A DNA stretch of 40,634 nt, taken from IMG/VR virus record IMGVR_UViG_2585427727_000015; one strand, 5' to 3'. Positions 2,796-40,634 of this stretch are shown here, piece after piece. Positions within the stretch are counted from its first letter, which is position 1. Each line of letters begins with the position of its first letter. The notes under the pieces are model-generated. The model saw nothing but the letters and a program-made list of their open reading frames with translations, did not search any database and had not been told where the DNA came from. Both the position numbers and the translations under genes were made by a program. Origin of the DNA: a virus. Lineage: Duplodnaviria > Heunggongvirae > Uroviricota > Caudoviricetes.

Positions 2796-3677
2796 TTACA
2801 TAGATGTTTCGTTTAATTCTTCCCGACGAACGCTGTAAACGTCGGTGGCTTTTGCCAGCAGTTCGTCATCATCTGAAAGTTTTTGTGCAATGTATTTGTA
2901 AGCCTTATCCAGTTCGGAGACAGTGCTGTAATTCATCGCTGCGCTGGTAAAGGCCATCAGCATTTCTTCTGGATCACGGCTATCCGCTTTACGCGTTTGC
3001 TCATCATGCTTTTTCACTGGTTTAGCGTTGATCAGACTGTTCATTCCCGCAGCAGTAGTCGTTTGCGGAGTAATGTCTCGCTCAACGCGCGGTGCCGTTT
3101 CCTGTAATTCGTCAGGGGTGTAAACACCGAGAAGCACATCAGGAGCGTGCAGGCGAGCCCATCGTTTCGTGCAAAGATAGGCAAGCTGCTGGCGCGGATC
3201 CTGTTCCCACAATGGAGAGTTACGCACTCCGGCTTGCGCCATACTGATGGTAAGCTCACGGGATTCTGCTTCTCCTTTAAGAACTGCTGACACAGTTACC
3301 GTCAGATTCGGTGATTTATCTGTTTTGCCGTTAACATTCGACCAGTCACCGCTCCAGCGATAATTCAGGCGTGTCGCTAGCAGGCTGGAAGAGGATACGA
3401 CCGCATTTACCAACTGTGCTTCGTAGCCTAACGTTCCGTTTACCACATGCGTTTTCTGCGCCACGGCGAAAGGGTTCATTCCCCACTGTGCCGCCTGCAT
3501 GGTCACCGCCAGACAATCGGCAGGTTTGCCTTCAAGATGTTTCGGTACAGTCGCTTTGCTTTGTGACATCAACTCCGCGAAACGCACCAGTTGATTCATG
3601 CCCTCCGGGCTGAAGATTGCCGCAGCAGTACCTACAGTTGCGCCTGGTTGTGATGTGATTGCGATATCATTGCTCAT
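2796..3677 (-). CDS. Single-strand annealing recombinase, RecT/Bet (Red-beta) family
   Basis: 293-aa ORF; C-terminal LCTKRWARLHAPDVLLGVYTPDELQE resembles the conserved Bet/RecT region; immediately downstream of and overlapping (ATGA) an exonuclease gene. Confidence 0.7.
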   Translation of the reverse strand: MSNDIAITSQPGATVGTAAAIFSPEGMNQLVRFAELMSQSKATVPKHLEGKPADCLAVTMQAAQWGMNPFAVAQKTHVVNGTLGYEAQLVNAVVSSSSLLATRLNYRWSGDWSNVNGKTDKSPNLTVTVSAVLKGEAESRELTISMAQAGVRNSPLWEQDPRQQLAYLCTKRWARLHAPDVLLGVYTPDELQETAPRVERDITPQTTTAAGMNSLINAKPVKKHDEQTRKADSRDPEEMLMAFTSAAMNYSTVSELDKAYKYIAQKLSDDDELLAKATDVYSVRREELNETSM

Positions 3678-4495
3678 ACGTACATATCCTGTTTACGTGC
3701 CCAGTCAGGGCGTTTAATAATTTCCACGCCGCCCCATTCATCATTGATGCGGCATTCGTGATAGGTATTCAGATCCCGGCGGAACAGAGCGTGCCCGGCA
3801 TCGACATCCGGCGCATCCAGCTCGAACACGCGTACCGGATACCGACCACAATCAATGCTTTCGCTCACGGCAAGAAAGAAAAAACCATGCGGCTGACCAG
3901 TAACCCTCATCGCTCCTTCGCGGTACATTGCGTCCTGCACGTGGTAGCGGAATTCCTCGATGTGGCGTGCAAAACGATCCATATCTGCAACCTTTTTCAC
4001 GTCGACGATCACGTTGTGCTCGTTCAGCCATTTGTCTGGACGAATGCGGCACAACTCACCAGTCTCTTCATCATTCCAGTACATTGATGCTTCGCAGTAA
4101 CCAGGTGCTTCCAGCATCCAGCGTGCCGCCGGGTGAGCCATTGCGCTATCACGCATCAGCTCCAGTTTCCGCCACTGCTCGGCATCAAGTACCGTAATCC
4201 CCATATCCGCTACATCACGAAGAAGCATTTCTTCGTCAGCTTTACCTTGTTTCGTCCGACGATCGAACTTCGGTGAAACAATGAAGCGTTTGTCGAATTC
4301 TCCAGGCTCCAGAAGCAGACAGTGCAATGCGGTTCCCATATCCAGTGCAGACTTTTTCTCTTCGTCTTCTGGTGCTGCCTGAACCCATTTAAGAAGCGCC
4401 GGATTCTTGGCAACCATGTCCAGTTGCGACTTACTCACGCCGTCACCGGCGTGGTAGTCTTCGTTGCTGATGTCGAAATAAATTCCCGGTTTCAT
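3674..4495 (-). CDS. Recombination exonuclease (RecE/YqaJ-like PD-(D/E)XK nuclease)
   Basis: 273-aa ORF, N-terminal DISNEDYHAGDGVSKSQL motif and acidic/lysine catalytic-like residues; paired with RecT-like gene as a two-gene recombination module. Confidence 0.65.
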   Translation of the reverse strand: MKPGIYFDISNEDYHAGDGVSKSQLDMVAKNPALLKWVQAAPEDEEKKSALDMGTALHCLLLEPGEFDKRFIVSPKFDRRTKQGKADEEMLLRDVADMGITVLDAEQWRKLELMRDSAMAHPAARWMLEAPGYCEASMYWNDEETGELCRIRPDKWLNEHNVIVDVKKVADMDRFARHIEEFRYHVQDAMYREGAMRVTGQPHGFFFLAVSESIDCGRYPVRVFELDAPDVDAGHALFRRDLNTYHECRINDEWGGVEIIKRPDWARKQDMYV

Positions 4496-29226: not shown

Positions 29227-31701
29227 ATGAGACAGGAATGTATACAAGCGGTCCAGCAGGCGGCGCAGCGCACATTAACGGCGCGAGAAATACAGAACAT
29301 TGAAGACCGCATTTATCGAAATATGCGCTCCATTGCTCGTGATGACCCGATGTCGTGGAGACAACTTTCCGAATCAGAGCGGCTATATCGTGCAGCACAA
29401 TTGGCATCTGAAGAATTACAGCTAGAAGCGGCATTAAAGAAACGTCGTGTGGCCCTCACTATAGCCGCACGTCAGAGATTGGATAAATTTATCAATAGCT
29501 ATCAAGGGGCTGATGGGAAACTTGGCGCTCTTAACCGTACTATTGCTTTTAATGCAGACGGTAAATCGAATTTCCTCTCTGTTGAATCCAGAACAAAAGC
29601 CACTCGTGATTATGCATTGAGTCAATTGCAGGAGGCATTTGAAGCAGTTGATCCTCGCTTTTTTGGCCTGTTTGAAGATGAAGCTGGCGTGCGTGACCTG
29701 GTATATGAAATGCGAGGGCAAAATACTGGCAATGCTAAAGCAAGAAAAGGTGCTAAGGCGTGGAGAGAAGTGACAGAGCTACTGCGCCGCCGGTTTAATG
29801 ATGCTGGTGGGGACATTGGCTATCTCGAAAACTGGGGGATCCCTCAACATCATTCTATGGAAAAGGTTGGGGCGGTATCAAAGGATAAGTGGGTTAGCGA
29901 TGTTATAGGTAAGCTGGATCGCAAATATTATATCCGAGCCGATGGACAACTGATGAACGATGCCGAGTTGTCTTCATTTCTTGGAGAGGCTTATAACACG
30001 ATCGCTACTGGTGGGCTGAATAAGCTTACTGATACCGGAATGCGAATTTCCGGCGCACGTGCTAACCGTGGTAATGCATCACGACAGATACATTTCAAAG
30101 ATGCAGATTCCTATCTGCAATATCAACAACTTTATGGCGATCGCTCTCTATGGGAAATCATGGTCGGTCACCTGGAAGGTATCAGTAAAGATATTGCACT
30201 GGTGGAAACATATGGCCCAAACCCCGATCATGTTTTCCGCTCTCTTCTTGATCAGGTGAAGGCAGAAACGGCAACAGCTAACCCGAGTAAAACCGGTAAA
30301 GTCGAGCGGCTGGCGAACAACACAGAGAATCTGTACAACTTTATTTCCGGAAAGACACAGCCTGTAGCGAATCCGCACATCGCGCGATGGTCTGACAATA
30401 TCCGCAACTGGCTGGTTGCCAGCAGACTCGGATCCGCGTTGCTATCATCGTTCTCTGATCTTGGAACCATGTATCTGTCTGCGAAGGTGACCAACCTTCC
30501 AATGAACCAGTTATTCCGCAACCAGCTTGAAGCTATGGACCCAACGAACCGTACAGAACTTGCGCGGGCGCGCCGCGCTGGTCTGGCAATGGAATCTCTA
30601 CTTGGCAGCGTTAACCGCTGGGCGATGGATAATATGGGGCCGTCAGTGTCTCGTTGGGCAGCAACGGCGGTAATGCGTGCCAGTGGGCTTACAGCATGGT
30701 CAGATGCGCACAAGCGCGCCTATGGCGTAACCATGATGGGAAGCCTGGGAGAAGTAGTGTCACGGACACCAGACCTTCGTAGCCTCGATGACTCTGATTT
30801 TCGTATCCTGAAAAGCAAAGGGATTACTGACACAGACTGGAGCGTATGGAAGCTGGCGCAACAGGAGGACTGGGGGAACGGTAATAATACGATGCTGACA
30901 CCGGAAAGCATTATGCGTATCCCTGATTCAGCAGTTAAACATCTTGGTGAGCCTGAACGCGTGAAATTTGAGGCAATGCGTAAACTGCTCGGTGCCGTAA
31001 CTGAAGAAGTTGATATGGCTGTTATTACACCGGGAGCACGTGAGCAACTGATAACCGGTTCTGGTATTCAGCGTGGAACATGGAAAGGTGAATTAACGAG
31101 AAGTGTTTTCCTGTTTAAATCGTTCCCTATCTCGGTGGTTATGCGTCACTGGTCACGCGCTATGGGTATGCCGTCTGCTGGTGGGCGTGCGGCATATATT
31201 GCGACGTTTATTGCCAGTACGACCATTCTTGGCGCTTTGTCGCAGCAACTTAACGACCTTGCGTCTGGTCGTAATCCTCGCGAGATGACAGGAGAAGATG
31301 CTGCTAAATTTTGGCTTGGTGCTCTACTGAAAGGTGGTGGTCTTGGCCTTTACGGTGACTTTTTATTGTCAGATCACACTAGGTACGGAAGCGGCGCGCT
31401 GGCGTCGATGCTTGGCCCGGTAGCTGTCCTGGTTGATGACGTAGTGAAGATAGCTCAGGGCATACCATTAAATGCTGTGGAAGGGAAGAACGAGCAGACT
31501 GGTGGTGATCTGGTGAAACTTGGGAAAGGGCTGATGCCAGGTGCGAATCTCTGGTACTTGAAGGCAGCTCTTGATCACATGATCTTTAACCAGATGCAGG
31601 AGTATTTTTCACCAGGCTATTTGCGTAAAATGGAGCAACGTTCGAAGAAAGAGTTTAACCAGACATACTGGTGGCGACCTCAGGATGTCACTCCGCAATA
31701 A
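29227..31701 (+). CDS. Internal virion/ejection protein (824 aa)
   Basis: Large ORF directly following; position analogous to T7 gp15/gp16-type core proteins. Confidence 0.55.
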   Translation: MRQECIQAVQQAAQRTLTAREIQNIEDRIYRNMRSIARDDPMSWRQLSESERLYRAAQLASEELQLEAALKKRRVALTIAARQRLDKFINSYQGADGKLGALNRTIAFNADGKSNFLSVESRTKATRDYALSQLQEAFEAVDPRFFGLFEDEAGVRDLVYEMRGQNTGNAKARKGAKAWREVTELLRRRFNDAGGDIGYLENWGIPQHHSMEKVGAVSKDKWVSDVIGKLDRKYYIRADGQLMNDAELSSFLGEAYNTIATGGLNKLTDTGMRISGARANRGNASRQIHFKDADSYLQYQQLYGDRSLWEIMVGHLEGISKDIALVETYGPNPDHVFRSLLDQVKAETATANPSKTGKVERLANNTENLYNFISGKTQPVANPHIARWSDNIRNWLVASRLGSALLSSFSDLGTMYLSAKVTNLPMNQLFRNQLEAMDPTNRTELARARRAGLAMESLLGSVNRWAMDNMGPSVSRWAATAVMRASGLTAWSDAHKRAYGVTMMGSLGEVVSRTPDLRSLDDSDFRILKSKGITDTDWSVWKLAQQEDWGNGNNTMLTPESIMRIPDSAVKHLGEPERVKFEAMRKLLGAVTEEVDMAVITPGAREQLITGSGIQRGTWKGELTRSVFLFKSFPISVVMRHWSRAMGMPSAGGRAAYIATFIASTTILGALSQQLNDLASGRNPREMTGEDAAKFWLGALLKGGGLGLYGDFLLSDHTRYGSGALASMLGPVAVLVDDVVKIAQGIPLNAVEGKNEQTGGDLVKLGKGLMPGANLWYLKAALDHMIFNQMQEYFSPGYLRKMEQRSKKEFNQTYWWRPQDVTPQ

Positions 31702-31710
31702 GGAAGTGTT

Positions 31711-31884
31711 GTGTTTTTAATTATTTTGAGTGTGATAATTTCTGGTGGGCTGTTATTTATTGACCGCTACAAATATTTTCTTAACCCTCAGACTCAAGCT
31801 ATTTGCTGGTTCATCTTTGTTGTGCAGGGAGTAGTTCTTGTTGCAAGCCTTATTGAGGGGAGGCCTCTGATTTTTACTGGGTAA
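31711..31884 (+). CDS. Small hydrophobic protein (57 aa, GTG start), tentative
   Basis: AGGAAG SD 4 nt before GTG 31711; predicted single/double TM; below ORF-track threshold. Confidence 0.3.
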   Translation: MFLIILSVIISGGLLFIDRYKYFLNPQTQAICWFIFVVQGVVLVASLIEGRPLIFTG

Positions 31885-31896
31885 ATAGGTGACTAC

Positions 31897-32193
31897 ATGC
31901 AAGCTATAGGATTCATTGTTTATATCGTCGTTGGTCTTTTTCAGTTGGCAGCAATTATGGCTGGGCTTGAATCATGGTGGGGATTGCACTGGATAATTGC
32001 AGCCCCCATTGCTTTCATCGTGAGCTATATTCCATTTGTTGGAGCGATTGTTGGTATGGTTGGCGCTGTGGATGTATGGCGGTGGGAGTGGTGGCAGGCT
32101 GGCCTTCTCTTCTTTGGTGGGATCATCTTTGCTATTGTCTGCGGTGGAATGTCATCATTTTTCGAATGGCTATCATTCAGAAAAAGAGCGTGA
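31897..32193 (+). CDS. Integral membrane protein (98 aa, 3-4 predicted TM segments)
   Basis: AGGTGA SD; Trp-rich hydrophobic sequence; stop codon inside palindrome GTGACATGTCAC. Confidence 0.55.
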   Translation: MQAIGFIVYIVVGLFQLAAIMAGLESWWGLHWIIAAPIAFIVSYIPFVGAIVGMVGAVDVWRWEWWQAGLLFFGGIIFAIVCGGMSSFFEWLSFRKRA

Positions 32194-32201
32194 CATGTCA
32201 C
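32190..32201. repeat. 12-bp perfect palindrome GTGACATGTCAC (copy 2 of 2)
   Basis: Identical to 11950-11961. Confidence 0.8.
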
Positions 32202-32226
32202 AGGCCGCTTTCGCGGCCTTGTTTTT
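32202..32226 (+). terminator. Rho-independent terminator ending the ejection-protein operon
   Basis: AGGCCGC-TTTC-GCGGCCT followed by TGTTTTT. Confidence 0.7.
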
Positions 32227-32386
32227 AACGAATGCCACCGCCGCCCGGGCGGGAATCCGCAGAACGCCCACCGCAGCGGGAGCCGTCAGCGGCAGTATCG
32301 CTGTCGTGCTGACAACGACCGGCAAAGGCCTGAGTTGAAGCTACCAGAGACAACAAAACGAACAGTGCAGCAAATGCTTTTTTCAT
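32225..32386 (-). CDS. Small putative secreted peptide (53 aa with signal-peptide-like N-terminus), tentative
   Basis: MKKAFAALFVLLSLVASTQA; candidate minus-strand promoter TTGACG-N16-TATAGA just upstream. Confidence 0.25.
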   Translation of the reverse strand: MKKAFAALFVLLSLVASTQAFAGRCQHDSDTAADGSRCGGRSADSRPGGGGIR

Positions 32387-32458
32387 TGTGAAATTTCCAT
32401 CTATAAGCCACCTCAATGTGGCGTCAATGAGTGTAGCACTGACTTTTGTTTCGTCCAC

Positions 32459-32479
32459 AAAAAAGCCCGCGCTGCGGGC
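32459..32479 (-). terminator. Rho-independent terminator of the 210-aa orphan gene
   Basis: Minus strand GCCCGC-AGC-GCGGGC followed by T6. Confidence 0.7.
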
Positions 32480-32484
32480 TTCTA

Positions 32485-33117
32485 TTAATGCAGTTTATCT
32501 TTGCTTATAACCAGTAGTCTGTGGGTATGCACATCTTTATCACTGCCCCAACAGAAATCAGCCCACTGGCTATAGAAATCATCCCATGATGCCATGAAGC
32601 TAAGAGGTCTATCTTCTTCAGAGCCATCTGAAACGTATACATTATATCCTGGGGTGTTTATAGCCCAAGAAATCATTCTTTCCCAGAATCTTCTCCCATC
32701 GATTGTTTGTTGCTCATCAGATACAACGATCGCATATTGCTCTAGGAAGAACTGAAAAAAAATCTGAGGCAAACCATGAACAGCACGGTCATGAATAACA
32801 TTAGGCGTACGCCATACCATGATCTGCGTACATGTTCTTTTGGCTTCGACGATATCTTCCCGAAAGATTAACTTAACCGCATACACCGTTTCTGGAGTAT
32901 CGCTGGTAGTAATCATTCTGTAATGATCGCCATTACAAGATTTTACAAGGCGATAACCATAAGGTGTTGTGAATCCCGGAAGAACGAAATCAACCACACC
33001 TTTCGCTAAGTAGCTTTCGGTGTGACTAGTGTTCTTCTCAGACATGTTCAGTTTTCTATCGAAATCTGCTTCTGGGATAATGTATGGCATCGCTTTTCTT
33101 GTTGTATTTGTTCTCAT
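32485..33117 (-). CDS. Orphan hypothetical protein (210 aa), own repressible promoter and terminator
   Basis: Strong SD GGGAGGA 5 nt before ATG 33117; no recognised motif. Confidence 0.6.
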   Translation of the reverse strand: MRTNTTRKAMPYIIPEADFDRKLNMSEKNTSHTESYLAKGVVDFVLPGFTTPYGYRLVKSCNGDHYRMITTSDTPETVYAVKLIFREDIVEAKRTCTQIMVWRTPNVIHDRAVHGLPQIFFQFFLEQYAIVVSDEQQTIDGRRFWERMISWAINTPGYNVYVSDGSEEDRPLSFMASWDDFYSQWADFCWGSDKDVHTHRLLVISKDKLH

Positions 33118-34691: not shown

Positions 34692-37007
34692 ATGACGGTC
34701 TCAACCGAAGTTGACCACAACGAATACACAGGTAACGGCGTTACGACATCGTTTCCGTATACTTTTCGAATTTTCAGAAAATCAGACCTGGTTGTTCAGG
34801 TGTCTGACCTGAACGGGAACGTAACAGAATTGGTTCTGGATACCGGTTATACGGTAACTGGGGCGGGCACTTATAGTGGCGGTTCAGTGGTTCTGCCGTC
34901 TCCGCTTGCTGCTGGCTGGCGAATTACGATAGATCGTGTGCTTGATGTAGTGCAGGAGACAGATCTTCGCAATCAGGGAAAATTTTTCCCCGAAGTGCAT
35001 GAAGATGCTTTTGACTACCTGACGATGCTGATCCAGCAATGTTTTGGGTGGTTCAGACGTGCATTGATGAAACCATCTTTGCTTGCAAAATATTACGATG
35101 CAAAGCAAAACAAAATTTCTAACCTTGCAGATCCATCACTTGAGCAGGACGCTGTAAATAATCGCTCAATGCGTAATTATGTCGATGCTGCAATCGCCGG
35201 GGTTGTTGGTGGTTTTGGTTGGTTTATTCAGTATGGTTCTGGAGCAGTATACCGAACGTTCCAGGATAAGATGAGAGACACCGTTAGTGTTTGCGATTTT
35301 GGGGCAAAAGGCGATGGTATAACAGATGATACATCTGCATTGATCTTGGCTGCAGAATATGCACGAGAATCATCCAGAACATTACGAGCGGAAGGTAATT
35401 TTATTATTACGGAGACATTAAATCTTCGTAATGTCAGCCTCGAAATGACCAATGCTGTTTTTACCATATCCCACCCAGGAATAGGGGTATTGCTTGGCGG
35501 GAATGCATCAAACCCTAACAACCCAAGACAAAACTTCGGAACGATTATCAGAAATTCTGGTATTTCATCTGAAACGACACCGGATATTCGTATTATCGGG
35601 GCAAAAGGGCAGCATATAAACATTGAGCGTTGCGACTACTTACAGTTATATGCAAATTATAATGCTTCGGTGGCATCGACGGATTATTCAATAGCATACT
35701 CAACCTTTAACCTGAAAAAGGTCGATACAATTCATTTTCTTGGAGTTGAGAAAGGATGGATAAATGAAAACTATTTTTATCTGAATCGTACGAATAATAT
35801 CATTTTCGCTGATAATCCATATCATCATAACCACAATAAGTTTTATGGTGGAACTATGGAGGGGGCAGGTAAAATTGATATTCAAAGAGGTGATAACAAT
35901 TACTTCTACGGGTTTCGTTTTGAACGATATCCATCATCCCAAACTAACCAACAGTTGATAATTAACTTTGGTGAATATACGTGGAATAACTCAATTGAAG
36001 CTACATGGTTAAGTTCTCCTTACTATACAAATGAGCCATACAATCCATCACCTTACACTTATGTCGAGGTAACTGATAATGGCAAGGGGAATGCAGTATT
36101 TCATATTCAGGAAAATATATCCGATGAAGTAACATTGTTTTCTTTAAATGCTAACACCCCATTTATATCCAGTGCTAACAATGGAGAAGTTGGTGTATTA
36201 GCATTTCAAACAGATGTAGATGGTTTATATAATATCCGTCACCTGGTTTCTTCTAAGTTTGCTTTTATGCGGAATTTTGGGTTGTTATGGGAATCTGGAG
36301 ATGTACCAGTAAGAAATGGTGATATGTTTACATTCTCAGCAGATACGGCATCGTTTCGCATTTACCTGTATGCATTAGATGGAGATGGGAATGTCATAAC
36401 TTCACAAACAGAAGCAATAACTTCTTCTATGCAATGGGATTCATCTAACCATAGATATGCTACTGTTGCTAACATTTCTTCCATTAAGATCAGGATTAAT
36501 AATGAAGGGGTTCCAGTTAGTGCAATTCGTTTAGCTGTGTATTCTGGTGGTAATGTAGCGAATACTGCATTTTCATGGCTATGCTTAACTGGTAGATATT
36601 ACAAAAATAGCACATCCTTGCCAAGGAAAAGAAAAGATAACTTCACCTTAAAACAAGGAAAAGCAATTACTTATTATAGTGATACTGATATTAGTATGGC
36701 TAACATTGGTTCAGGAATTACCTGTTATAAAACCGATTTATCTGAACTCAAAATTAATCTTGTAAGGGGCAGGTATGTAGTGAAATCAATTTCAGGCAGT
36801 GAAATATATGTATACCAAGGAACAGTCACTTATTACCCTCCATTCAGTGATATCAAATTGGTATATACGGATGGGGTTGAAAATAAATTATTAGATGTGC
36901 AAAACATCTCTTCAGGAAAGATTACTCTTGCAGATACAGTACCATCAGCTATATCTGCAGGCGATTTTGTAGATGTTATTGTTACAAAGACGAAATCTAT
37001 TTTATGA
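34692..37007 (+). CDS. Tailspike protein (conserved N-terminal particle-binding domain, AT-rich C-terminal receptor-binding domain, likely O-antigen depolymerase)
   Basis: 771-aa ORF; N-terminus MTVSTEVDHNEYTGNGVTTSFPYTFRIF matches (from memory) the N-terminal domain shared by epsilon15/phiV10-type tailspikes; C-terminal two-thirds markedly lower GC. Confidence 0.8.
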   Translation: MTVSTEVDHNEYTGNGVTTSFPYTFRIFRKSDLVVQVSDLNGNVTELVLDTGYTVTGAGTYSGGSVVLPSPLAAGWRITIDRVLDVVQETDLRNQGKFFPEVHEDAFDYLTMLIQQCFGWFRRALMKPSLLAKYYDAKQNKISNLADPSLEQDAVNNRSMRNYVDAAIAGVVGGFGWFIQYGSGAVYRTFQDKMRDTVSVCDFGAKGDGITDDTSALILAAEYARESSRTLRAEGNFIITETLNLRNVSLEMTNAVFTISHPGIGVLLGGNASNPNNPRQNFGTIIRNSGISSETTPDIRIIGAKGQHINIERCDYLQLYANYNASVASTDYSIAYSTFNLKKVDTIHFLGVEKGWINENYFYLNRTNNIIFADNPYHHNHNKFYGGTMEGAGKIDIQRGDNNYFYGFRFERYPSSQTNQQLIINFGEYTWNNSIEATWLSSPYYTNEPYNPSPYTYVEVTDNGKGNAVFHIQENISDEVTLFSLNANTPFISSANNGEVGVLAFQTDVDGLYNIRHLVSSKFAFMRNFGLLWESGDVPVRNGDMFTFSADTASFRIYLYALDGDGNVITSQTEAITSSMQWDSSNHRYATVANISSIKIRINNEGVPVSAIRLAVYSGGNVANTAFSWLCLTGRYYKNSTSLPRKRKDNFTLKQGKAITYYSDTDISMANIGSGITCYKTDLSELKINLVRGRYVVKSISGSEIYVYQGTVTYYPPFSDIKLVYTDGVENKLLDVQNISSGKITLADTVPSAISAGDFVDVIVTKTKSIL

Positions 37008-37041: not shown

Positions 37042-37326
37042 ATGGATATAACGCCTTTCCTTCATGCGTTTTGTGCTGTGGCTGCGCAGGTACTGATTGG
37101 CCTTTTTACCGGAAACTGGGCTTACGGGGCGATAGCCGGTTGTACGTTCTTCATTGCGCGTGAACACACCCAGGCAGAATATCGCTGGATTGAAATGTTC
37201 GGGCATGGCAAGCGTATGAATATGCCGTGGTGGGGAGGTTTTGATCCGCGCGTATGGGATGTTGGAAGCCTGTTTGACTTTGTTGTTCCTGTTACTGTTT
37301 GTTTTGGTGTTTATTTCTATATTTGA
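37042..37326 (+). CDS. Small membrane protein (94 aa), function unknown
   Basis: AAGGAG SD 5 nt before ATG; hydrophobic N- and C-terminal segments; followed by stable hairpin 37333-37353. Confidence 0.55.
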   Translation: MDITPFLHAFCAVAAQVLIGLFTGNWAYGAIAGCTFFIAREHTQAEYRWIEMFGHGKRMNMPWWGGFDPRVWDVGSLFDFVVPVTVCFGVYFYI

Positions 37327-37475
37327 CTGCTACCGCGCCATTTGATGGCGCGGAATTCAACTAAGCCTCTATATTTTAAATAATTTCTGTACTGCAATCT
37401 CTTCAGAGTTATGTAAAAGGCGAGCCTTATTATCGACATCAAAGGCAGGGGATTTACGATGCTAGGGTAACAAAA

Positions 37476-37489
37476 AACCATAAATGGTT
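37476..37489. promoter_or_regulatory. Palindrome AACCATAAATGGTT upstream of lysis cassette
   Basis: Perfect 6-2-6 inverted repeat about 60 bp upstream of holin start. Confidence 0.35.
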
Positions 37490-37547
37490 TATCATGCATG
37501 ATGCTTTATTATTTAGGGGGTCGTTATGCATATAAATGGTGGAAAAT

Positions 37548-37952
37548 ATGTCAGCTCAACTAACCAGTGAAACATTAAATCAGTGGCTTAGCATGAGTTC
37601 TCTGGCGGCGGTGATAGCAGGAGTGCCTCCTGAGGTTGCTTTGGGAGCTTTGGCTGGCGCGGTAATTTTTGTTACCTCTGCGGTAGAGTACCCAATTCGT
37701 CGTCGCGTACTCTTGTCGATGCTTAGTTTTCTCTGCGGACTTCTTTTCTACAAACCAGCAGCATCAATTCTTATCGGCATAGCCAGCCTGATACCTACCA
37801 TCACGCAGGACTCTTTCGAGAAAGGGATTGTTTTCTCTGCTGGCGCATTTGTGTCAGCAATCGTCGCAGTACGAATTGGCATCTGGCTCTATCACCGTTC
37901 CGATAACCCACGCGAGTTAATTCCGGGGAGAAAAGACGATGGTAACGCATGA
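37548..37952 (+). CDS. Putative holin (class with 3 TM segments; alternative upstream start at 37536 gives dual-start motif)
   Basis: Hydrophobic segments, charged C-terminus, GGTGGA SD; located immediately upstream of endolysin. Confidence 0.6.
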   Translation: MSAQLTSETLNQWLSMSSLAAVIAGVPPEVALGALAGAVIFVTSAVEYPIRRRVLLSMLSFLCGLLFYKPAASILIGIASLIPTITQDSFEKGIVFSAGAFVSAIVAVRIGIWLYHRSDNPRELIPGRKDDGNA

Positions 37953-38247: not shown

Positions 38248-38866
38248 ACAATTCCAGCGAGCTGCTGGTATTAGCGAGGCGCTGGCCGCTCGCTGGTTCT
38301 CGCATATAACTTCTGCGATGAAAGAGTTTGGTATCAGCAAAGCAGAAGATCAGGCAATGTTTATTGCTCAAGTTGGGCATGAGTCTGGGGGGTTCACCAG
38401 GTTGCAGGAGAATTTCAACTACAGCGTTACCGGACTGGCTAACTTCGTTCGGGCTGGGCGTCTCACTCAGGGGCAGGCTAATGCACTGGGGCGCCGTGCT
38501 GGTGAACCACCATTGCCACTTGAGCGCCAGCGCGCGATCGCAAATCTGGTATACAGCAAACGCATGGGGAACAATGCCCCTGGTGATGGCTGGAATTACC
38601 GAGGGCGCGGACTTATCCAGATTACCGGTTTGAATAACTATCGTGATTGCGGAAACGGTCTGAAGGTTGACCTGCTGGAGAGCCCTGAACTGCTGGCGCA
38701 GGACGAATATGCGGCTCGTAGCGCGGCGTGGTTCTTCGCCAGCAAAGGATGCATGAAGTATACCGGCGATATTGCACGTGTAACTCTGATTATCAATGGT
38801 GGCCGGAACGGCATCGACGACCGGCGAGCGCGGTACATCACTGCCAGTAAGGTGCTGGCGGTATGA
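38237..38866 (+). CDS. Endolysin, glycoside hydrolase family 19 (chitinase-like lysozyme)
   Basis: [10 protein letters not shown]...ENFNYS motif characteristic of GH19 endolysins; position between holins and spanins. Confidence 0.8.
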
Positions 38867-39345
38867 TCTGGGCATTCGTAAAAGCATACTGGAAACAGTT
38901 GATTATCGTGGCAGTGCTTGCTGTTCTGGTCATATCAGGAGTTGTTGCCTGGAATATACACGGCAGTCGCCAGTACGATGCCGGGTATGCTCAGGCGGAA
39001 GAAGACCGCAAAGCCGAAGAAGACAAAGTTCGTCAGTACTACGAACAGGAGAAAGTGACCAATGAACGTGAAGCTCAGCAGAGGATCGACCAGGCGCGCA
39101 ATGATGCTCTTGATGCTGCCGCTAGCGCTGGCCGGTTGCAGCAACAACTCTTTGCCATCCGTGAGCAGCTCAGGCAGTATAACGCCATTGTCGGCGCTGG
39201 GTCGTCAGCCGCAGACACCGGAGTTTTGCTTGCCGACGTGCTCAGCAAATCTCTCGAGAGAAACAGACAACTGGCAGAGTATGCTGACCGGGCAGCCGAA
39301 GCCGGAAGAGTCTGCGAAAAACAGTACGACACTTTGACCAGATAG
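38863..39345 (+). CDS. i-spanin (Rz-like)
   Basis: N-terminal TM helix then charged coiled-coil; contains embedded lipoprotein ORF in +1 frame. Confidence 0.75.
39062..39337 (+). CDS. o-spanin (Rz1-like outer-membrane lipoprotein) embedded within i-spanin gene; true start may be an internal Met (39101/39104)
   Basis: Lipobox LALAGC after signal-like MMLLMLP; nested in alternate frame of Rz-like gene. Confidence 0.6.
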   Translation: MNVKLSRGSTRRAMMLLMLPLALAGCSNNSLPSVSSSGSITPLSALGRQPQTPEFCLPTCSANLSRETDNWQSMLTGQPKPEESAKNSTTL

Positions 39346-39563: not shown

Positions 39564-40103
39564 TTAATTAAACCAGCTGTCCGATTTGTTCTCTTCTGCT
39601 TTGCCCACGCTTTTCATCAGATCTCGACCGCCCTCAGTCATATTCCTGTTTGCGTCAGCTTCAGATTGCACCACATCGGTTTGCGCAGCTTTGTGCTTCA
39701 GTTCCTGATCGATAAATTCGTTTTCTCGCTTAACGCGGGCTTCTTCTTTCGCCAGCGCCAGTTTTTGTTTCTGAATCTCTAAGCTGCGTAGCTCATCTTC
39801 ATAACTTTGATCGCGTTTTTTGTCCGCAGAGGCTTCGGCGTCCAGTTTATCCTGACGAGCTTTCTTATTTGCCGCTGCCGTTGCCGCTCTTTTGTTAGCG
39901 GCGGCCTGGGCGTTTGCGCGACGTTGCTTCTCTTGCTGGATTTCCCTGTTGCGCTCCGCGACCCATTCGTCATGCTGCCTTTGCTCTTCATTTTTACCTT
40001 GCTGTTCCGCTTCTGCGACAGCAGAGAGTTGATCCTGCAATGATGAGGCGATAGCCGGATAGCTTAAGGAGGCTAAGATGGCGCAAAGAAAAACTTTCTT
40101 CAT
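39564..40103 (-). CDS. Secreted coiled-coil protein (signal peptide; Lys/Ala/Glu-rich), probably host-encoded or boundary gene
   Basis: 179-aa ORF with signal-peptide-like N-terminus MKKVFLCAILASLSYPAIA. Confidence 0.6.
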   Translation of the reverse strand: MKKVFLCAILASLSYPAIASSLQDQLSAVAEAEQQGKNEEQRQHDEWVAERNREIQQEKQRRANAQAAANKRAATAAANKKARQDKLDAEASADKKRDQSYEDELRSLEIQKQKLALAKEEARVKRENEFIDQELKHKAAQTDVVQSEADANRNMTEGGRDLMKSVGKAEENKSDSWFN

Positions 40104-40118
40104 GACTCCTCCTGATCA

Positions 40119-40634
40119 TTAGCTCTTTTCAGGACATTTGGTATTTGGCTGAATACGCGTTTCGTTATACGTCGTGGTAATAACAACGGCTAAACCTGTC
40201 GTAAACTGGCACTCTTTACCCACCTGGGTGGAGGTATACACTTTGGTGCCTTCCTTATACGTTAGAGAAACACCTTCCACTAAGGTTTTATCATTCACCA
40301 TAGAACCCGCTGCCGCGCCAACAGCTCCGCCGCCAACTGCACCTGCCGTCGTTCCGGAATTGCTGCCAGACCCGACGTTGTGGCCAATAACACCGCCAGC
40401 GACTGCACCAATAAGCGCGCCGAAGGCTTGTGCGTTTCGTTTATTTTGGGAGTTGTCTACGGCAACTTTTGCGGGAAGAATGGAAATAATATTAACGGTT
40501 TTAGTTTCTTGTTTGGTATTCAGTTGATCGGTTTGATAAACATCGGCGGCATGATCATCAGCATTTGACTGGCATCCTGCCAGAGTGAATGACGCTAACA
40601 TTGCCACAGGCAGAAGACATTTTTTAAATTTCAT
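40119..40634 (-). CDS. Glycine-zipper lipoprotein (YcfJ/SlyB-like), probably host-encoded
   Basis: Lipobox FTLAGC; GALIGAVAGGVIGHNVGSG glycine-zipper motif; start codon at window edge. Confidence 0.65.
   Translation of the reverse strand: MKFKKCLLPVAMLASFTLAGCQSNADDHAADVYQTDQLNTKQETKTVNIISILPAKVAVDNSQNKRNAQAFGALIGAVAGGVIGHNVGSGSNSGTTAGAVGGGAVGAAAGSMVNDKTLVEGVSLTYKEGTKVYTSTQVGKECQFTTGLAVVITTTYNETRIQPNTKCPEKS

What the first reader, a model, noticed from the sequence alone, without database searches (positions are those of the whole stretch)
31711..32386. Small membrane and secreted proteins after the ejection operon and a membrane protein after the tailspike
Two small hydrophobic ORFs (31711-31884, 31897-32193) end the ejection operon, a possible signal-peptide peptide (32225-32386) has its own promoter, and a 94-aa membrane protein (37042-37326) sits between tailspike and holin. 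In related temperate podoviruses this neighbourhood carries O-antigen conversion or superinfection-exclusion genes; these small membrane proteins are candidates for such functions but show no recognisable family.
Basis: inference. Interest (0 to 1): 0.4.

Follow-up and report, generated by a model that had tools for sequence, protein, structure and literature searches.

The report
Small envelope accessory genes, epsilon15-like prophage
Four small membrane or secreted proteins of unknown function sit in the two swappable cargo slots of an epsilon15/phiV10-type E. coli prophage; all are real, conserved genes, probably phage exclusion or entry factors rather than O-antigen converters, and one belongs to a large unnamed family that follows phage tail-fibre genes across Proteobacteria.

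Summary
All four ORFs are real.

- **ORF1** (31711-31884, GTG start, not annotated in RefSeq) and **ORF2** (31897-32193) are under purifying selection. They always occur together. They are one of three alternative cassettes that follow a ≥98%-identical ejection-protein gene in sister prophages.
- **ORF3** (32225-32386) lies on the minus strand. It is a self-contained, mobile module encoding a Sec-type signal peptide plus a conserved 31-aa two-cysteine peptide.
- **ORF4** (37042-37326) is a confidently modelled three-helix membrane protein. Its family has at least 444 clusters at 50% identity and occurs in 35% of complete E. coli genomes. Family members directly follow tail-fibre or tailspike genes in podo-, sipho- and myoviruses, and are chromosomal in Sphingomonadales.

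Three of the four have PHROG families of unknown function. None matches Pfam, NCBIfam, PADLOC, PDB, P22 SieA, T4 Imm or epsilon15 gp22.

The neighbourhood argument is right: sister prophages carry acyltransferase or gtr-like genes in the ORF4 slot. However, ORF4's distribution and late-operon placement argue against serotype conversion.

The function is untested. My best guess, at modest confidence, is that these genes interfere with phage DNA entry at the envelope. This is ordinary but useful.

The parts
29227..31701 (+). 824-aa ejection / internal virion protein (phiV10 p20 / epsilon15 gp17 type). It is the last large gene of the ejection operon and is listed here for context.
   Evidence: Its C-terminal 199 aa are ≥98% identical in 80 IMG/VR contigs.
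31711..31884 (+). ORF1: a 57-aa protein with two hydrophobic helices and a GTG start. It is unannotated in RefSeq and is the first gene of the ORF1+ORF2 cassette.
   Evidence: dN/dS is 0.18 against Klebsiella phage BUCT711. It is always found with ORF2: 39 of 39 complete loci.
31897..32193 (+). ORF2: a 98-aa polytopic inner-membrane protein (phrog_3075). It has Trp-rich acidic loops (ESWWG, DVWRWEWWQ) and a basic C-terminal tail.
   Evidence: dN/dS 0.018; pLDDT 91.7; helices 2-28, 32-42, 46-59, 65-97. Homologues directly follow the large ejection protein in Cronobacter and Salmonella prophages.
32202..32219 (.). GC-rich hairpin. It acts as an intrinsic terminator for the + strand operon, followed by TGTTTTT. 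The same hairpin closes ORF3 on the minus strand, but there it has no T tract.
   Evidence: (z -2.7 and -2.9)
32225..32386 (-). ORF3: a 53-aa precursor made of a Sec-type signal peptide (cleavage predicted after AFA22) and a conserved 31-aa mature peptide with two invariant cysteines (phrog_14503). It is a mobile moron-type module.
   Evidence: It is found in unrelated phage contexts and in 30 of 80 sister prophages, independently of which cassette is present.
32400..32427 (-). Promoter-like element TTGACG-16-TATAGA upstream of ORF3. Its spacer contains the palindrome GCCAC-N6-GTGGC.
   Evidence: It was not found by the stricter scan and is degenerate in the Klebsiella copy.
32461..32483 (-). 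Intrinsic terminator of the upstream 210-aa minus-strand gene. It insulates ORF3 from that gene.
   Evidence: (z -2.7)
34692..37007 (+). 771-aa tailspike, listed for context. Its C-terminal part has 34-36% GC.
37042..37326 (+). ORF4: a 94-aa three-helix membrane protein (phrog_1443). Across the family, R40, E41 and W72 are invariant and H8, G29, Q44, E46, D79 and P83 are nearly invariant.
   Evidence: (pLDDT 92.8)
37333..37353 (+). 9-bp GC-rich hairpin just after ORF4, with no U tract. Its role is unknown.
   Evidence: z -4.2
37536..37952 (+). First holin-like gene of the lysis cassette, listed for context.

Best explanation
These are accessory, envelope-targeted cargo genes. They occupy the two exchangeable slots of an epsilon15-like prophage and are not part of its conserved virion or lysis machinery.

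(1) ORF1 and ORF2 form a two-gene inner-membrane cassette.
- Shown: the cassette is appended to the 3' end of the ejection-protein operon.
- Inferred: the two genes are transcribed with that operon.
- Shown: in near-identical phages, the cassette is replaced by a phiV10 p21-type 46-aa two-helix gene, or by a small transmembrane ORF plus a lipoprotein.

(2) ORF3 is an independent moron-like module of hairpin, promoter-like element, gene and hairpin.
- Shown: the layout of the module and its mobility between phages.
- Inferred: it exports a 31-aa disulfide-bonded peptide to the periplasm. Export and disulfide formation are both inferred.

(3) ORF4 belongs to a very large family of three-helix membrane proteins.
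- Shown: family members are inserted, without a promoter, directly behind the receptor-binding gene of many phages.

Most likely mechanism (inference only):
- The products sit in or at the inner membrane or periplasm. There they interfere with the entry step of incoming phage, meaning assembly or function of the trans-envelope DNA conduit.
- This would be functionally analogous to P22 SieA, T4 Imm/Sp and HK97 gp15, but with unrelated sequences.
- They would protect the lysogen (ORF3) or the already infected, lysing cell (ORF1, ORF2, ORF4).
- They are not O-antigen-modifying enzymes.
For: - **Real genes under selection:**
- **Envelope targeting:** hydrophobic helices and a signal peptide; confident all-helical models; a basic C-terminal tail on ORF2.
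- **Accessory, exchangeable nature of the ORF1 slot:** 80 contigs share a ≥98%-identical end of the ejection protein. Of these, 39 carry ORF1+ORF2, 29 carry the p21 type and 10 carry a TM ORF plus lipoprotein.
- **ORF3 is independent of the cassette:** it is present in 30 of the 80 contigs regardless of cassette type.
- **Positional analogue in epsilon15:** it has a different 64-aa two-helix gp18 at the same place. Neither gp18 nor p21 shows any BLASTP similarity to ORF1.
- **ORF2 linkage:** its relatives always abut the large ejection protein, also in Cronobacter and in a different Salmonella podovirus.
- **ORF3 mobility:** the module has its own flanking hairpins in five different phage contexts.
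- **ORF4 presence in the slot:** it is found in 19 of 75 sister prophages, behind at least six tailspike length classes. Otherwise the slot is empty or holds acyltransferase or gtr-like genes.
- **ORF4 follows receptor-binding genes in many phage types:** a lambdoid side tail fibre, gpJ, a P2-type fibre, a tail-fibre assembly gene, and tail fibres or tailspikes in Leclercia, Chelativorans and Desulfovibrio.
- **Precedent:** small inner-membrane or periplasmic exclusion proteins encoded next to ejection or receptor-binding genes are known. These include P22 sieA (PMC10461980), and Imm, Sp and Cor (PMC11436027).
Against: - No functional data exist for any of the four.
- There is no homology to SieA, Imm or gp22, and nothing in PADLOC.
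- ORF1, ORF2 and ORF4 have no detectable promoter of their own and lie in late operons. Prophage-state expression, which is typical of exclusion genes of temperate phages, is therefore not indicated.
- ORF4 is present at up to 7 copies per E. coli genome, and its start overlaps or abuts the end of the preceding tail gene in some phages. This fits a function each phage needs for itself as well as it fits host protection.
- Chromosomal ORF4 homologues in Sphingomonadales suggest a cell-autonomous role that need not involve phage.
- The ORF3 promoter call is weak.
Confidence: 0.35

Rival explanations
1. The genes serve the phage's own late cycle rather than excluding other phages. ORF1, ORF2 and ORF4 would be late membrane proteins needed by each phage. 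Possible roles include tuning lysis timing (holin/antiholin-like), handling the membrane-active ejection proteins or the tail fibre before assembly, or reducing loss of progeny on lysing cells.
For: - They lie on the late strand, closely spaced behind the preceding late genes (ORF4's start overlaps the preceding tail gene in some phages), and have no promoter of their own.
- ORF4 occurs in strictly lytic Aeromonas jumbo phages and in up to 7 copies per E. coli genome.
- Purifying selection is strong.
- ORF4 lies next to the lysis cassette in this window.
- ORF2 hits Phage_holin_5_2 weakly (E 0.027).
Against: - Near-identical phages do without them. The ORF4 slot is empty in strain 4/1-1 and in many others, and ORF1+ORF2 is replaced by unrelated cassettes.
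- The phage already has two holin-like genes, an endolysin and spanins.
- The holin hit is far below Pfam's cut-off and is matched by equally weak hits to unrelated DUFs.
- In lambdoid and P2-like phages, ORF4 is far from the lysis genes.
Confidence: 0.3
2. ORF4, or the other small membrane proteins, would alter O-antigen synthesis, in the way that epsilon15 gp22 or Pseudomonas D3 Iap inhibit the host polymerase.
For: - ORF4 occupies the exact slot that holds oac, the polymerase-plus-inhibitor pair, or acyltransferase/gtr-like genes in relatives.
- Known polymerase inhibitors are also tiny membrane proteins; epsilon15 gp22 is 66 aa.
Against: - There is no similarity to gp22 and no enzyme domain.
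- ORF4 is 81-86% identical behind unrelated receptor-binding proteins, including in phages propagated on K-12 and E. coli C. It follows at least six tailspike classes.
- It is about 60% identical in Comamonas and Aeromonas. O-antigen polymerases are serotype-specific, so a shared inhibitor is unlikely (general knowledge).
- It is present in Sphingomonadales, which lack classical LPS (general knowledge), beside housekeeping genes.
- It lies on the late strand, whereas the known converters in epsilon15, phiV10 and P22 are minus-strand units.
Confidence: 0.05
3. ORF1 and/or ORF2 are small hydrophobic virion (ejectosome) components. They would be packaged with the three large ejection proteins and inserted into the host membrane on infection.
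For: - They are the last genes of the ejection-protein operon.
- ORF2 relatives always abut the large ejection protein in three phage lineages.
- Every variant of the slot begins with a small one- or two-helix protein.
Against: - The cassettes are non-homologous and interchangeable behind a ≥98%-identical ejection protein. That is not expected for interacting structural parts.
- phiV10 and epsilon15 lack ORF2 altogether.
- Neither the phiV10 nor the epsilon15 record labels the protein at this slot as structural.
Confidence: 0.07
4. ORF3 is a host-fitness or signalling peptide unrelated to phage exclusion, for example a periplasmic metal-binding or regulatory peptide. It would simply be carried as cargo.
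For: - The mature peptide is highly conserved, Asp/His/Gly-rich and has two invariant cysteines.
- It moves between unrelated prophages, often beside toxin-antitoxin genes and other cargo.
Against: - There is no family or motif match; the best is NCBIfam at E 0.07.
- In this window its position mirrors P22 sieA.
- Nothing distinguishes this explanation from exclusion without an experiment.
Confidence: 0.15

Closest known systems
P22 SieA (inner-membrane superinfection-exclusion protein; PMC10461980)
   Same: - It is encoded between the ejection-protein genes and the tailspike gene of a temperate podovirus.
- It is a polytopic inner-membrane protein.
[quoted passage not shown]
   Different: - There is no sequence relation: hhalign probability is below 1%.
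- sieA is a convergent minus-strand gene with its own annotated promoter. ORF1 and ORF2 are co-directional with the ejection operon and have no promoter.
- SieA is 160 aa. Only ORF3 shares the orientation and promoter layout, and ORF3 is a secreted peptide, not a membrane protein.
T4 Imm and Sp (Pfam Imm_superinfect; spackle)
   Same: - Imm is a small membrane protein (83 aa) of a phage that blocks DNA injection.
- Sp is a small periplasmic protein that blocks the tail lysozyme (PMC11436027).
- ORF3 is likewise a small exported protein, and this phage has an SLT-domain ejection protein (one search shows the SLT domain in the Cronobacter homologue).
   Different: - There is no homology to Imm.
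- Imm and Sp are early genes of a lytic phage.
- The idea that ORF3 inhibits a lytic transglycosylase is pure speculation.
epsilon15 gp22 / phiV10 Oac serotype-conversion genes
   Same: They occupy the same slot between the tailspike and the lysis genes. gp22 is also a tiny two-helix membrane protein.
   Different: They lie on the opposite strand as their own transcription units. There is no similarity to ORF4. ORF4 is not tied to any one receptor-binding protein or to O-antigen-bearing hosts.
phiV10 p21 and epsilon15 gp18 (uncharacterised two-helix proteins)
   Same: They have the same position and strand directly after the ejection-protein gene, a similar size, and the same two-helix hairpin build as ORF1.
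   Different: They show no detectable sequence similarity to ORF1. They occur without an ORF2 partner.
PHROG families phrog_3075, phrog_14503/3117, phrog_1443
   Same: ORF2, ORF3 and ORF4 match these families end to end, with E-values of 1e-36 to 1e-55.
   Different: phrog_3075, phrog_3117 and phrog_1443 carry no function. phrog_14503's label 'membrane associated protein' and the NCBI name 'transmembrane anchored protein' probably mistake a cleavable signal peptide for a membrane anchor.

Membership tests
P22 SieA family | Sequence homology to SieA types A-C, including the conserved FnRYPnEAnnFNK motif | tested here: not met
   hhalign of the ORF2 and ORF4 profiles against P22 SieA gave probabilities of 0.3% and 0.1%. 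The motif is absent from all four ORFs (sequences).
P22 SieA family | Gene lies between the ejection-protein genes and the tailspike gene of a temperate podovirus | tested here: met
   ORF1-3 lie between the 824-aa ejection gene and the tailspike; compare the P22 map.
P22 SieA family | Own promoter and expression from the prophage | tested here: inconclusive
   No promoter-like site lies upstream of ORF1 or ORF2. ORF3 has TTGACG-16-TATAGA, but it is not conserved in Klebsiella. No expression data are available.
P22 SieA family | Blocks DNA injection by related phages | not testable with these tools
   This needs plating, adsorption and injection assays.
T4 Imm (Pfam PF14373 Imm_superinfect) | Match to the family profile or sequence | tested here: not met
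   No Pfam hit. hhalign against T4 Imm gave probabilities of 0.2-0.3%.
O-antigen conversion genes (Oac/Acyl_transf_3, GtrABC, Wzy-type polymerase, epsilon15 gp22 inhibitor) | Recognisable enzyme or flippase domain, or similarity to gp22 | tested here: not met
   No such Pfam or NCBIfam domain was found. hhalign against gp22 gave a probability of 0.1%.
O-antigen conversion genes (Oac/Acyl_transf_3, GtrABC, Wzy-type polymerase, epsilon15 gp22 inhibitor) | Association with one receptor specificity or with O-antigen-bearing hosts | tested here: not met
   ORF4 follows at least six tailspike classes. It also follows lambdoid, P2-like and gpJ-type fibres, and is found in Sphingomonadales chromosomes.
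O-antigen conversion genes (Oac/Acyl_transf_3, GtrABC, Wzy-type polymerase, epsilon15 gp22 inhibitor) | Changes the LPS profile or serotype of the lysogen | not testable with these tools
   This needs LPS gels or serotyping.
Holins | Score above a holin family threshold | tested here: not met
   ORF2 against Phage_holin_5_2 scored 15.2 bits, below the cut-off of 29.2. Only 4 of 29 family members hit it, and equally weak hits go to unrelated DUFs. ORF1 and ORF4 gave no holin hit.
Holins | Location in the lysis cassette | tested here: not met
   ORF1 and ORF2 are 5 kb from the cassette. ORF4 is adjacent to it here, but not in lambdoid or P2-like phages. The cassette already has two holin-family genes.
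Moron (self-contained cargo unit: promoter + gene + terminator, mobile between phages) | Flanking terminators, own promoter, and presence in unrelated phage backgrounds | tested here: met
   This applies to ORF3 only. It has hairpins on both sides and a promoter-like element, which is weak. The same module occurs in TL-2011b, Klebsiella BUCT711, a Pectobacterium prophage and another E. coli phage.
Moron (self-contained cargo unit: promoter + gene + terminator, mobile between phages) | Own promoter for ORF1/ORF2 and ORF4 | tested here: not met
   The intergenic gaps are only 9, 12 and 35 nt, and no promoter-like site was found. The DNA shared with lambdoid phages starts only 12 nt before the ORF4 ATG. 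GC content does differ from the neighbours: ORF1 is 39% against 49-52%, and ORF4 is 48% against 34-36%.
PHROG phrog_3075 / phrog_14503 / phrog_1443 | Full-length profile match | tested here: met
   E-values were 2e-54, 2e-40 and 7e-55, each covering the whole protein. ORF1 has no PHROG.
Sec-type secreted peptide (ORF3) | n-h-c signal peptide with an AXA site, and a conserved mature part | tested here: met
   The sequence is MKK / AFAALFVLLSLVA / STQAFA|G. In 20 homologues the signal region varies, while C25, C38 and DGSRCGGRSADSRPGG are invariant or nearly so. No dedicated predictor was available.

The most novel reading that the evidence does not exclude
The ORF4 family would be a new, very widespread class of membrane protein linked to receptor-binding genes. 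The family has no Pfam or DUF entry and no name.

- **Distribution:** it is present in 35% of complete E. coli genomes and in alpha-, beta- and gamma-proteobacteria and Desulfovibrio.
- **Conserved site:** it has one compact conserved site at a single membrane face. R40, E41 and W72 are invariant and H8, Q44, E46, D79 and P83 are nearly so.
- **Proposed action:** it would act on a host inner-membrane component that is conserved across Proteobacteria. It could be a general block to phage genome entry, or a tiny membrane enzyme or regulator. Some bacteria, the Sphingomonadales, would have fixed it as a chromosomal gene.

Separately, ORF3 could be a secreted peptide inhibitor of the transglycosylase carried by incoming phages.
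Probability: 0.2. Interest if true: 0.65.

Novelty: new member of a known kind. Interest (0 to 1): 0.35.

Why it matters
Small phage membrane proteins are the least annotated part of prophage genomes, yet they decide which phages can superinfect a strain. That matters for phage therapy and for typing O157-type strains with phiV10-like phages.

This analysis turns a vague list into testable units:
- A two-gene cassette, ORF1+ORF2, with two natural alternative versions at the same site.
- A portable secreted-peptide module, ORF3.
- A very common but unnamed family, ORF4, present in about one in three complete E. coli genomes and often in several copies. It travels with receptor-binding genes in all three tail morphotypes.

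If the ORF4 family proves to block genome entry, or to modify a conserved membrane target, it would explain a frequent feature of tail-fibre modules and deserve a family name. If none of the four shows a phenotype, they remain ordinary hypothetical cargo.

Tried and rejected
- **Pfam, NCBIfam and PADLOC** scans of all four ORFs gave nothing at or near threshold.
- **PDB sequence search** with the ORF4 profile gave 0 hits at E ≤ 10.
- **Foldseek against BFVD** with the ORF2 and ORF4 models found nothing at E ≤ 0.001.
- **The afdb50 library** was unavailable.
- **Weak Pfam PhoR hits** appeared in 5 of 38 ORF4 relatives. I treat them as a composition effect of membrane helices.
- **Weak holin and DUF hits** for ORF2 relatives were rejected as noise.
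- **hhalign** against P22 SieA, T4 Imm and epsilon15 gp22, and ORF2 against ORF4, showed no relation.
- **BLASTP** of ORF1 against phiV10 p21 and epsilon15 gp18 found nothing.
- **Full-text literature search** for the conserved peptide motifs and for 'transmembrane anchored protein' found nothing relevant.
- **The epsilon15 genome paper** was not held.
- **The 117-aa upstream-extended version of ORF4** (36973) was rejected. It overlaps the tailspike gene, lacks a ribosome-binding site, and homologues start at MDITP.
- **The 77-aa extended version of ORF3** (GTG at 32458; phrog_3117) was rejected because the extension is not conserved between contexts.
- **ORF4 membrane topology** could not be settled. 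Phage copies favour a cytoplasmic 40-73 loop (5.4 K+R). Sphingomonad copies have Arg-rich C-terminal tails that favour the opposite orientation.
Full report
**What the window is.** The region is part of an epsilon15/phiV10-type podovirus (genus Uetakevirus) prophage in E. coli.
- It shares near-identical DNA with Escherichia phages phiv142-3 and HEMP4, and partly with phiV10.
- It has the same gene order as phiV10, phiv142-3 and epsilon15.
- It ends next to the chromosomal genes yfgI and yfgH.
- The local gene order is:
  - three large ejection / internal virion proteins, the last being 824 aa at 29227-31701;
  - ORF1 and ORF2;
  - a terminator;
  - a minus-strand block containing ORF3, a 210-aa protein, an AntA/Bro-N antirepressor and the epsilon15 gp19 homologue;
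  - the tailspike (34692-37007);
  - ORF4;
  - two holin-family genes, an endolysin and spanins.

**Check of the observation.** All four ORFs are present at the coordinates given.
- **ORF1** has a GTG start preceded by AAGGAAG, and two hydrophobic segments.
  - NCBI's pipeline does not call it in the 100%-identical region of E. coli 4/1-1.
  - Klebsiella phage vB_KpnP_BUCT711 keeps the same frame with a TTG start. There are 18 synonymous against 15 non-synonymous differences (dN/dS 0.18), and the other two frames are closed by stops. It is a gene.
- **ORF2** has dN/dS of 0.018 against the same phage.
- The gaps are 9 nt (ejection gene to ORF1) and 12 nt (ORF1 to ORF2). A GC-rich hairpin with a T tract follows at 32202-32219.
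- **ORF3** is on the minus strand.
  - It has a textbook Sec signal peptide (MKK, a hydrophobic core, then AFA|G).
  - In 20 homologues from eight genera the signal region drifts, while the mature peptide is almost invariant, with two invariant cysteines.
  - A terminator of the upstream gene (32461-32483) and the shared hairpin at 32202-32219 bracket it.
  - A TTGACG-16-TATAGA element lies at 32427-32400. This promoter call is weak. The stricter scanner missed it. It leaves only 13 nt to the ATG. It is not conserved in the Klebsiella copy.
- **ORF4** has an AAGGAG ribosome-binding site. It starts 35 nt after the tailspike stop, with no terminator between them.

**Family status.**
- ORF2, ORF3 and ORF4 match phrog_3075, phrog_14503/3117 and phrog_1443 end to end. 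All three families are of unknown function.
- Nothing is found in Pfam, NCBIfam or PADLOC.
- ORF1 has no family at all.

**The slot after the ejection operon.** I collected 80 IMG/VR contigs in which the last 199 aa of the ejection protein are ≥98% identical to the window. Directly after its stop codon they carry one of three unrelated cassettes:
- ORF1+ORF2 in 39 contigs; the two genes are never found apart in complete loci.
- A phiV10 p21-type 46-aa two-helix gene in 29 contigs.
- A short transmembrane ORF followed by a roughly 125-aa lipoprotein (lipobox LLVGC) in 10 contigs.
- The remaining two contigs are truncated.

Related points:
- epsilon15 has yet another 64-aa two-helix protein, gp18, at this place. 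ORF1 shows no BLASTP similarity to p21 or gp18.
- ORF2 relatives number 52 clusters, all from Enterobacterales. They again sit directly behind the large ejection protein in Cronobacter prophages (without ORF1) and in a different Salmonella podovirus.
- The ORF2 model is confident (pLDDT 91.7). It has four helices, two acidic Trp-rich loops and a basic C-terminal tail.
- Interchangeable non-homologous cassettes behind an identical neighbour are the mark of accessory cargo, not of interacting virion parts.

**ORF3 is an independent module.**
- It is present in 30 of the 80 contigs: 20 of 39 with ORF1+ORF2, 2 of 29 with p21, and 8 of 10 with the lipoprotein cassette.
- The same hairpin-bracketed gene is found in phage TL-2011b beside ant and a YafO toxin.
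- It also occurs in the Klebsiella phage, in a Pectobacterium prophage convergent on tail genes, and in another E. coli phage next to RelB/YafQ.
- Each copy has its own downstream hairpin, and substitutions fall mostly at third codon positions.
- The database name 'transmembrane anchored protein' most likely misreads a cleavable signal peptide.

**ORF4 and the slot after the tailspike.** In 75 sister prophages with a near-identical holin, the tailspike gene varies widely in length class.
- The space before the holin is either almost empty (72 nt in ten contigs, as in strain 4/1-1), or holds an ORF4 homologue on the + strand, or holds acyltransferase- or gtrB/gtrC-like genes, mostly on the minus strand.
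- The ORF4 homologue is found in 19 contigs, behind tailspikes of 709, 729, 766, 771, 913 and 924 aa.

But ORF4 is not confined to it:
- It is 81-86% identical in more than 50 lambdoid phages (phage 21, mEp460 and others). There it follows the side tail fibre, and the shared DNA starts only 12 nt before the ATG.
- It follows a gpJ-type fibre in a Comamonas prophage.
- It overlaps the end of a P2-type fibre gene in Aeromonas.
- It overlaps the tail-fibre assembly gene of Halomonas phage phiHAP-1, just before the sheath gene.
- It occurs in a P22-like Aeromonas phage and in lytic Aeromonas jumbo phages.
- In a one-genome-per-species scan, the upstream gene matched tail-fibre, tailspike or tail-protein PHROGs in Escherichia, Leclercia, Chelativorans and Desulfovibrio.
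- A second unknown family (phrog_18574/1361/6034) often sits between the fibre gene and the ORF4 homologue.
- In Sphingomonadales the homologue is a stand-alone chromosomal gene flanked by ligA, pnp, prmA, thiC, polA and similar genes (these identifications are from reading the sequences, not from a tool).

Size and structure of the ORF4 family:
- The family has at least 444 representatives at 50% identity, all about 90-110 aa with no fused domains.
- It is found in 1904 of 5426 complete E. coli genomes, with a median of two and up to seven copies each. The ORF1+ORF2 cassette is in 216 of those genomes.
- The model is confident (pLDDT 92.8) and has three helices.
- Across distant members, R40, E41 and W72 are invariant, and H8, G29, Q44, E46, D79 and P83 are nearly so.
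- Which face that is remains unresolved.

**What it most likely does.**
- *Shown:* these are conserved, envelope-targeted, exchangeable accessory genes in two cargo slots.
- *Inferred:* they act on phage entry at the inner membrane or periplasm.
- *Argument for the inference:*
[quoted passage not shown] It blocks DNA delivery, and escape mutations map to ejection proteins gp16 and gp20 (PMC10461980).
  - T4 Imm and Sp, and Cor, are further examples (PMC11436027).
  - The slot varies in the way expected for genes in an arms race.
- *Weaknesses:*
  - ORF1, ORF2 and ORF4 look like late genes without promoters.
  - ORF4 is kept by lytic phages, is present in many copies per genome, and exists as a cellular gene in one bacterial order.
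  - A role in the phage's own late cycle is therefore almost as likely.
- *My estimates:* about 0.35 for exclusion or entry interference, about 0.30 for an own-cycle late function, and about 0.05 for O-antigen conversion. Smaller shares go to virion components and to an unrelated host-fitness role for ORF3.

**Comparison with known systems.** No membership in SieA, Imm, gp22-type inhibitors, O-antigen-modifying enzymes or holins can be claimed. Each was tested by profile or sequence comparison and not met. By orientation and promoter, the positional analogue of P22 sieA is ORF3, not ORF1/ORF2.

**Verdict.** The finding is a real but ordinary feature of temperate phage genomes: uncharacterised small envelope proteins in known cargo slots.
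- Its specific O-antigen suggestion is unlikely for ORF4.
- Its exclusion suggestion is untested.
- The most useful outcomes are an unannotated gene (ORF1), the three-way cassette polymorphism, and the recognition that ORF4 belongs to a very common, unnamed family linked to receptor-binding genes.

Noticed in passing
L121, L126, L135, L150, L159, L170 at 3609-4200 (sister prophages; the slot equivalent to window 31702-32200): A third cassette occupies the ORF1/ORF2 slot. It has a 41-aa transmembrane ORF, with a second hydrophobic helix readable only in another frame, followed by a roughly 125-aa lipoprotein (MRKVFLIFGFMLLVGC|QS...). The lipoprotein has no Pfam or PADLOC match.
   Followed up: partly
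window 32485-33117 (-): A 210-aa protein (phrog_1349, no Pfam) lies in the island between the ejection operon and the tailspike. The same position holds a YafO toxin in TL-2011b, a DUF2335 protein in Klebsiella BUCT711, and HicA plus DUF1902 in Cronobacter prophages. The island therefore looks like a hot spot for toxin-antitoxin-type cargo.
   Followed up: no
window 32409-32424 (-), inside the ORF3 promoter spacer: The palindrome GCCAC-ATTGAG-GTGGC lies between the -35- and -10-like hexamers. It is kept as GCCAC-GGTTCA-GTGGT in the Klebsiella copy. It could be an operator or an RNA hairpin.
   Followed up: no
window 37333-37353 (+): A strong 9-bp GC hairpin lies right after ORF4, with no U tract (z -4.2). 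The roughly 200-nt non-coding stretch up to the holin travels with ORF4 in sister prophages. A 60-aa minus-strand ORF (37317-37499) within it has no ribosome-binding site and is probably not coding.
   Followed up: partly
L324, L325, L316, L318, L313, L319, L309 and others (Sphingomonadales genomes): ORF4-family homologues are single chromosomal genes flanked by housekeeping genes (ligA, pnp, prmA, thiC, polA, kdsD/kdsB). They have Arg-rich C-terminal tails and show no sign of a prophage.
   Followed up: partly
L004 4723-5001 (phage 21 CPT_21_23); also the genes upstream of the ORF4 homologue in L272 and L273: A second unknown family (phrog_1361/18574/6034, 92-188 aa, no Pfam) often sits between the tail-fibre gene and the ORF4 homologue. 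This suggests a two-gene module; the window has only the ORF4 half.
   Followed up: partly
window 35600-37000: The receptor-binding part of the tailspike gene has 34-36% GC, against 45-55% elsewhere. ORF4 right after it is 48% GC. This is consistent with separate horizontal origins for the tailspike head and for ORF4.
   Followed up: no
window 39062-39337 (+), inside 38863-39345: An embedded Rz1-type lipoprotein ORF (lipobox LALAGC) lies in a different frame within the DUF2514 spanin gene, as annotated for epsilon15 and phiV10. The prophage ends just before yfgI and yfgH (39564-40634).
   Followed up: no
L002 6239-6595 (phiv142-3 Orf12) and proteins P0003, P0006, P0010: Several database entries annotate ORF2 with an N-terminal extension (118-149 aa) that runs back over ORF1 in another frame. 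These are probably start-site mis-calls that hide ORF1.
   Followed up: no
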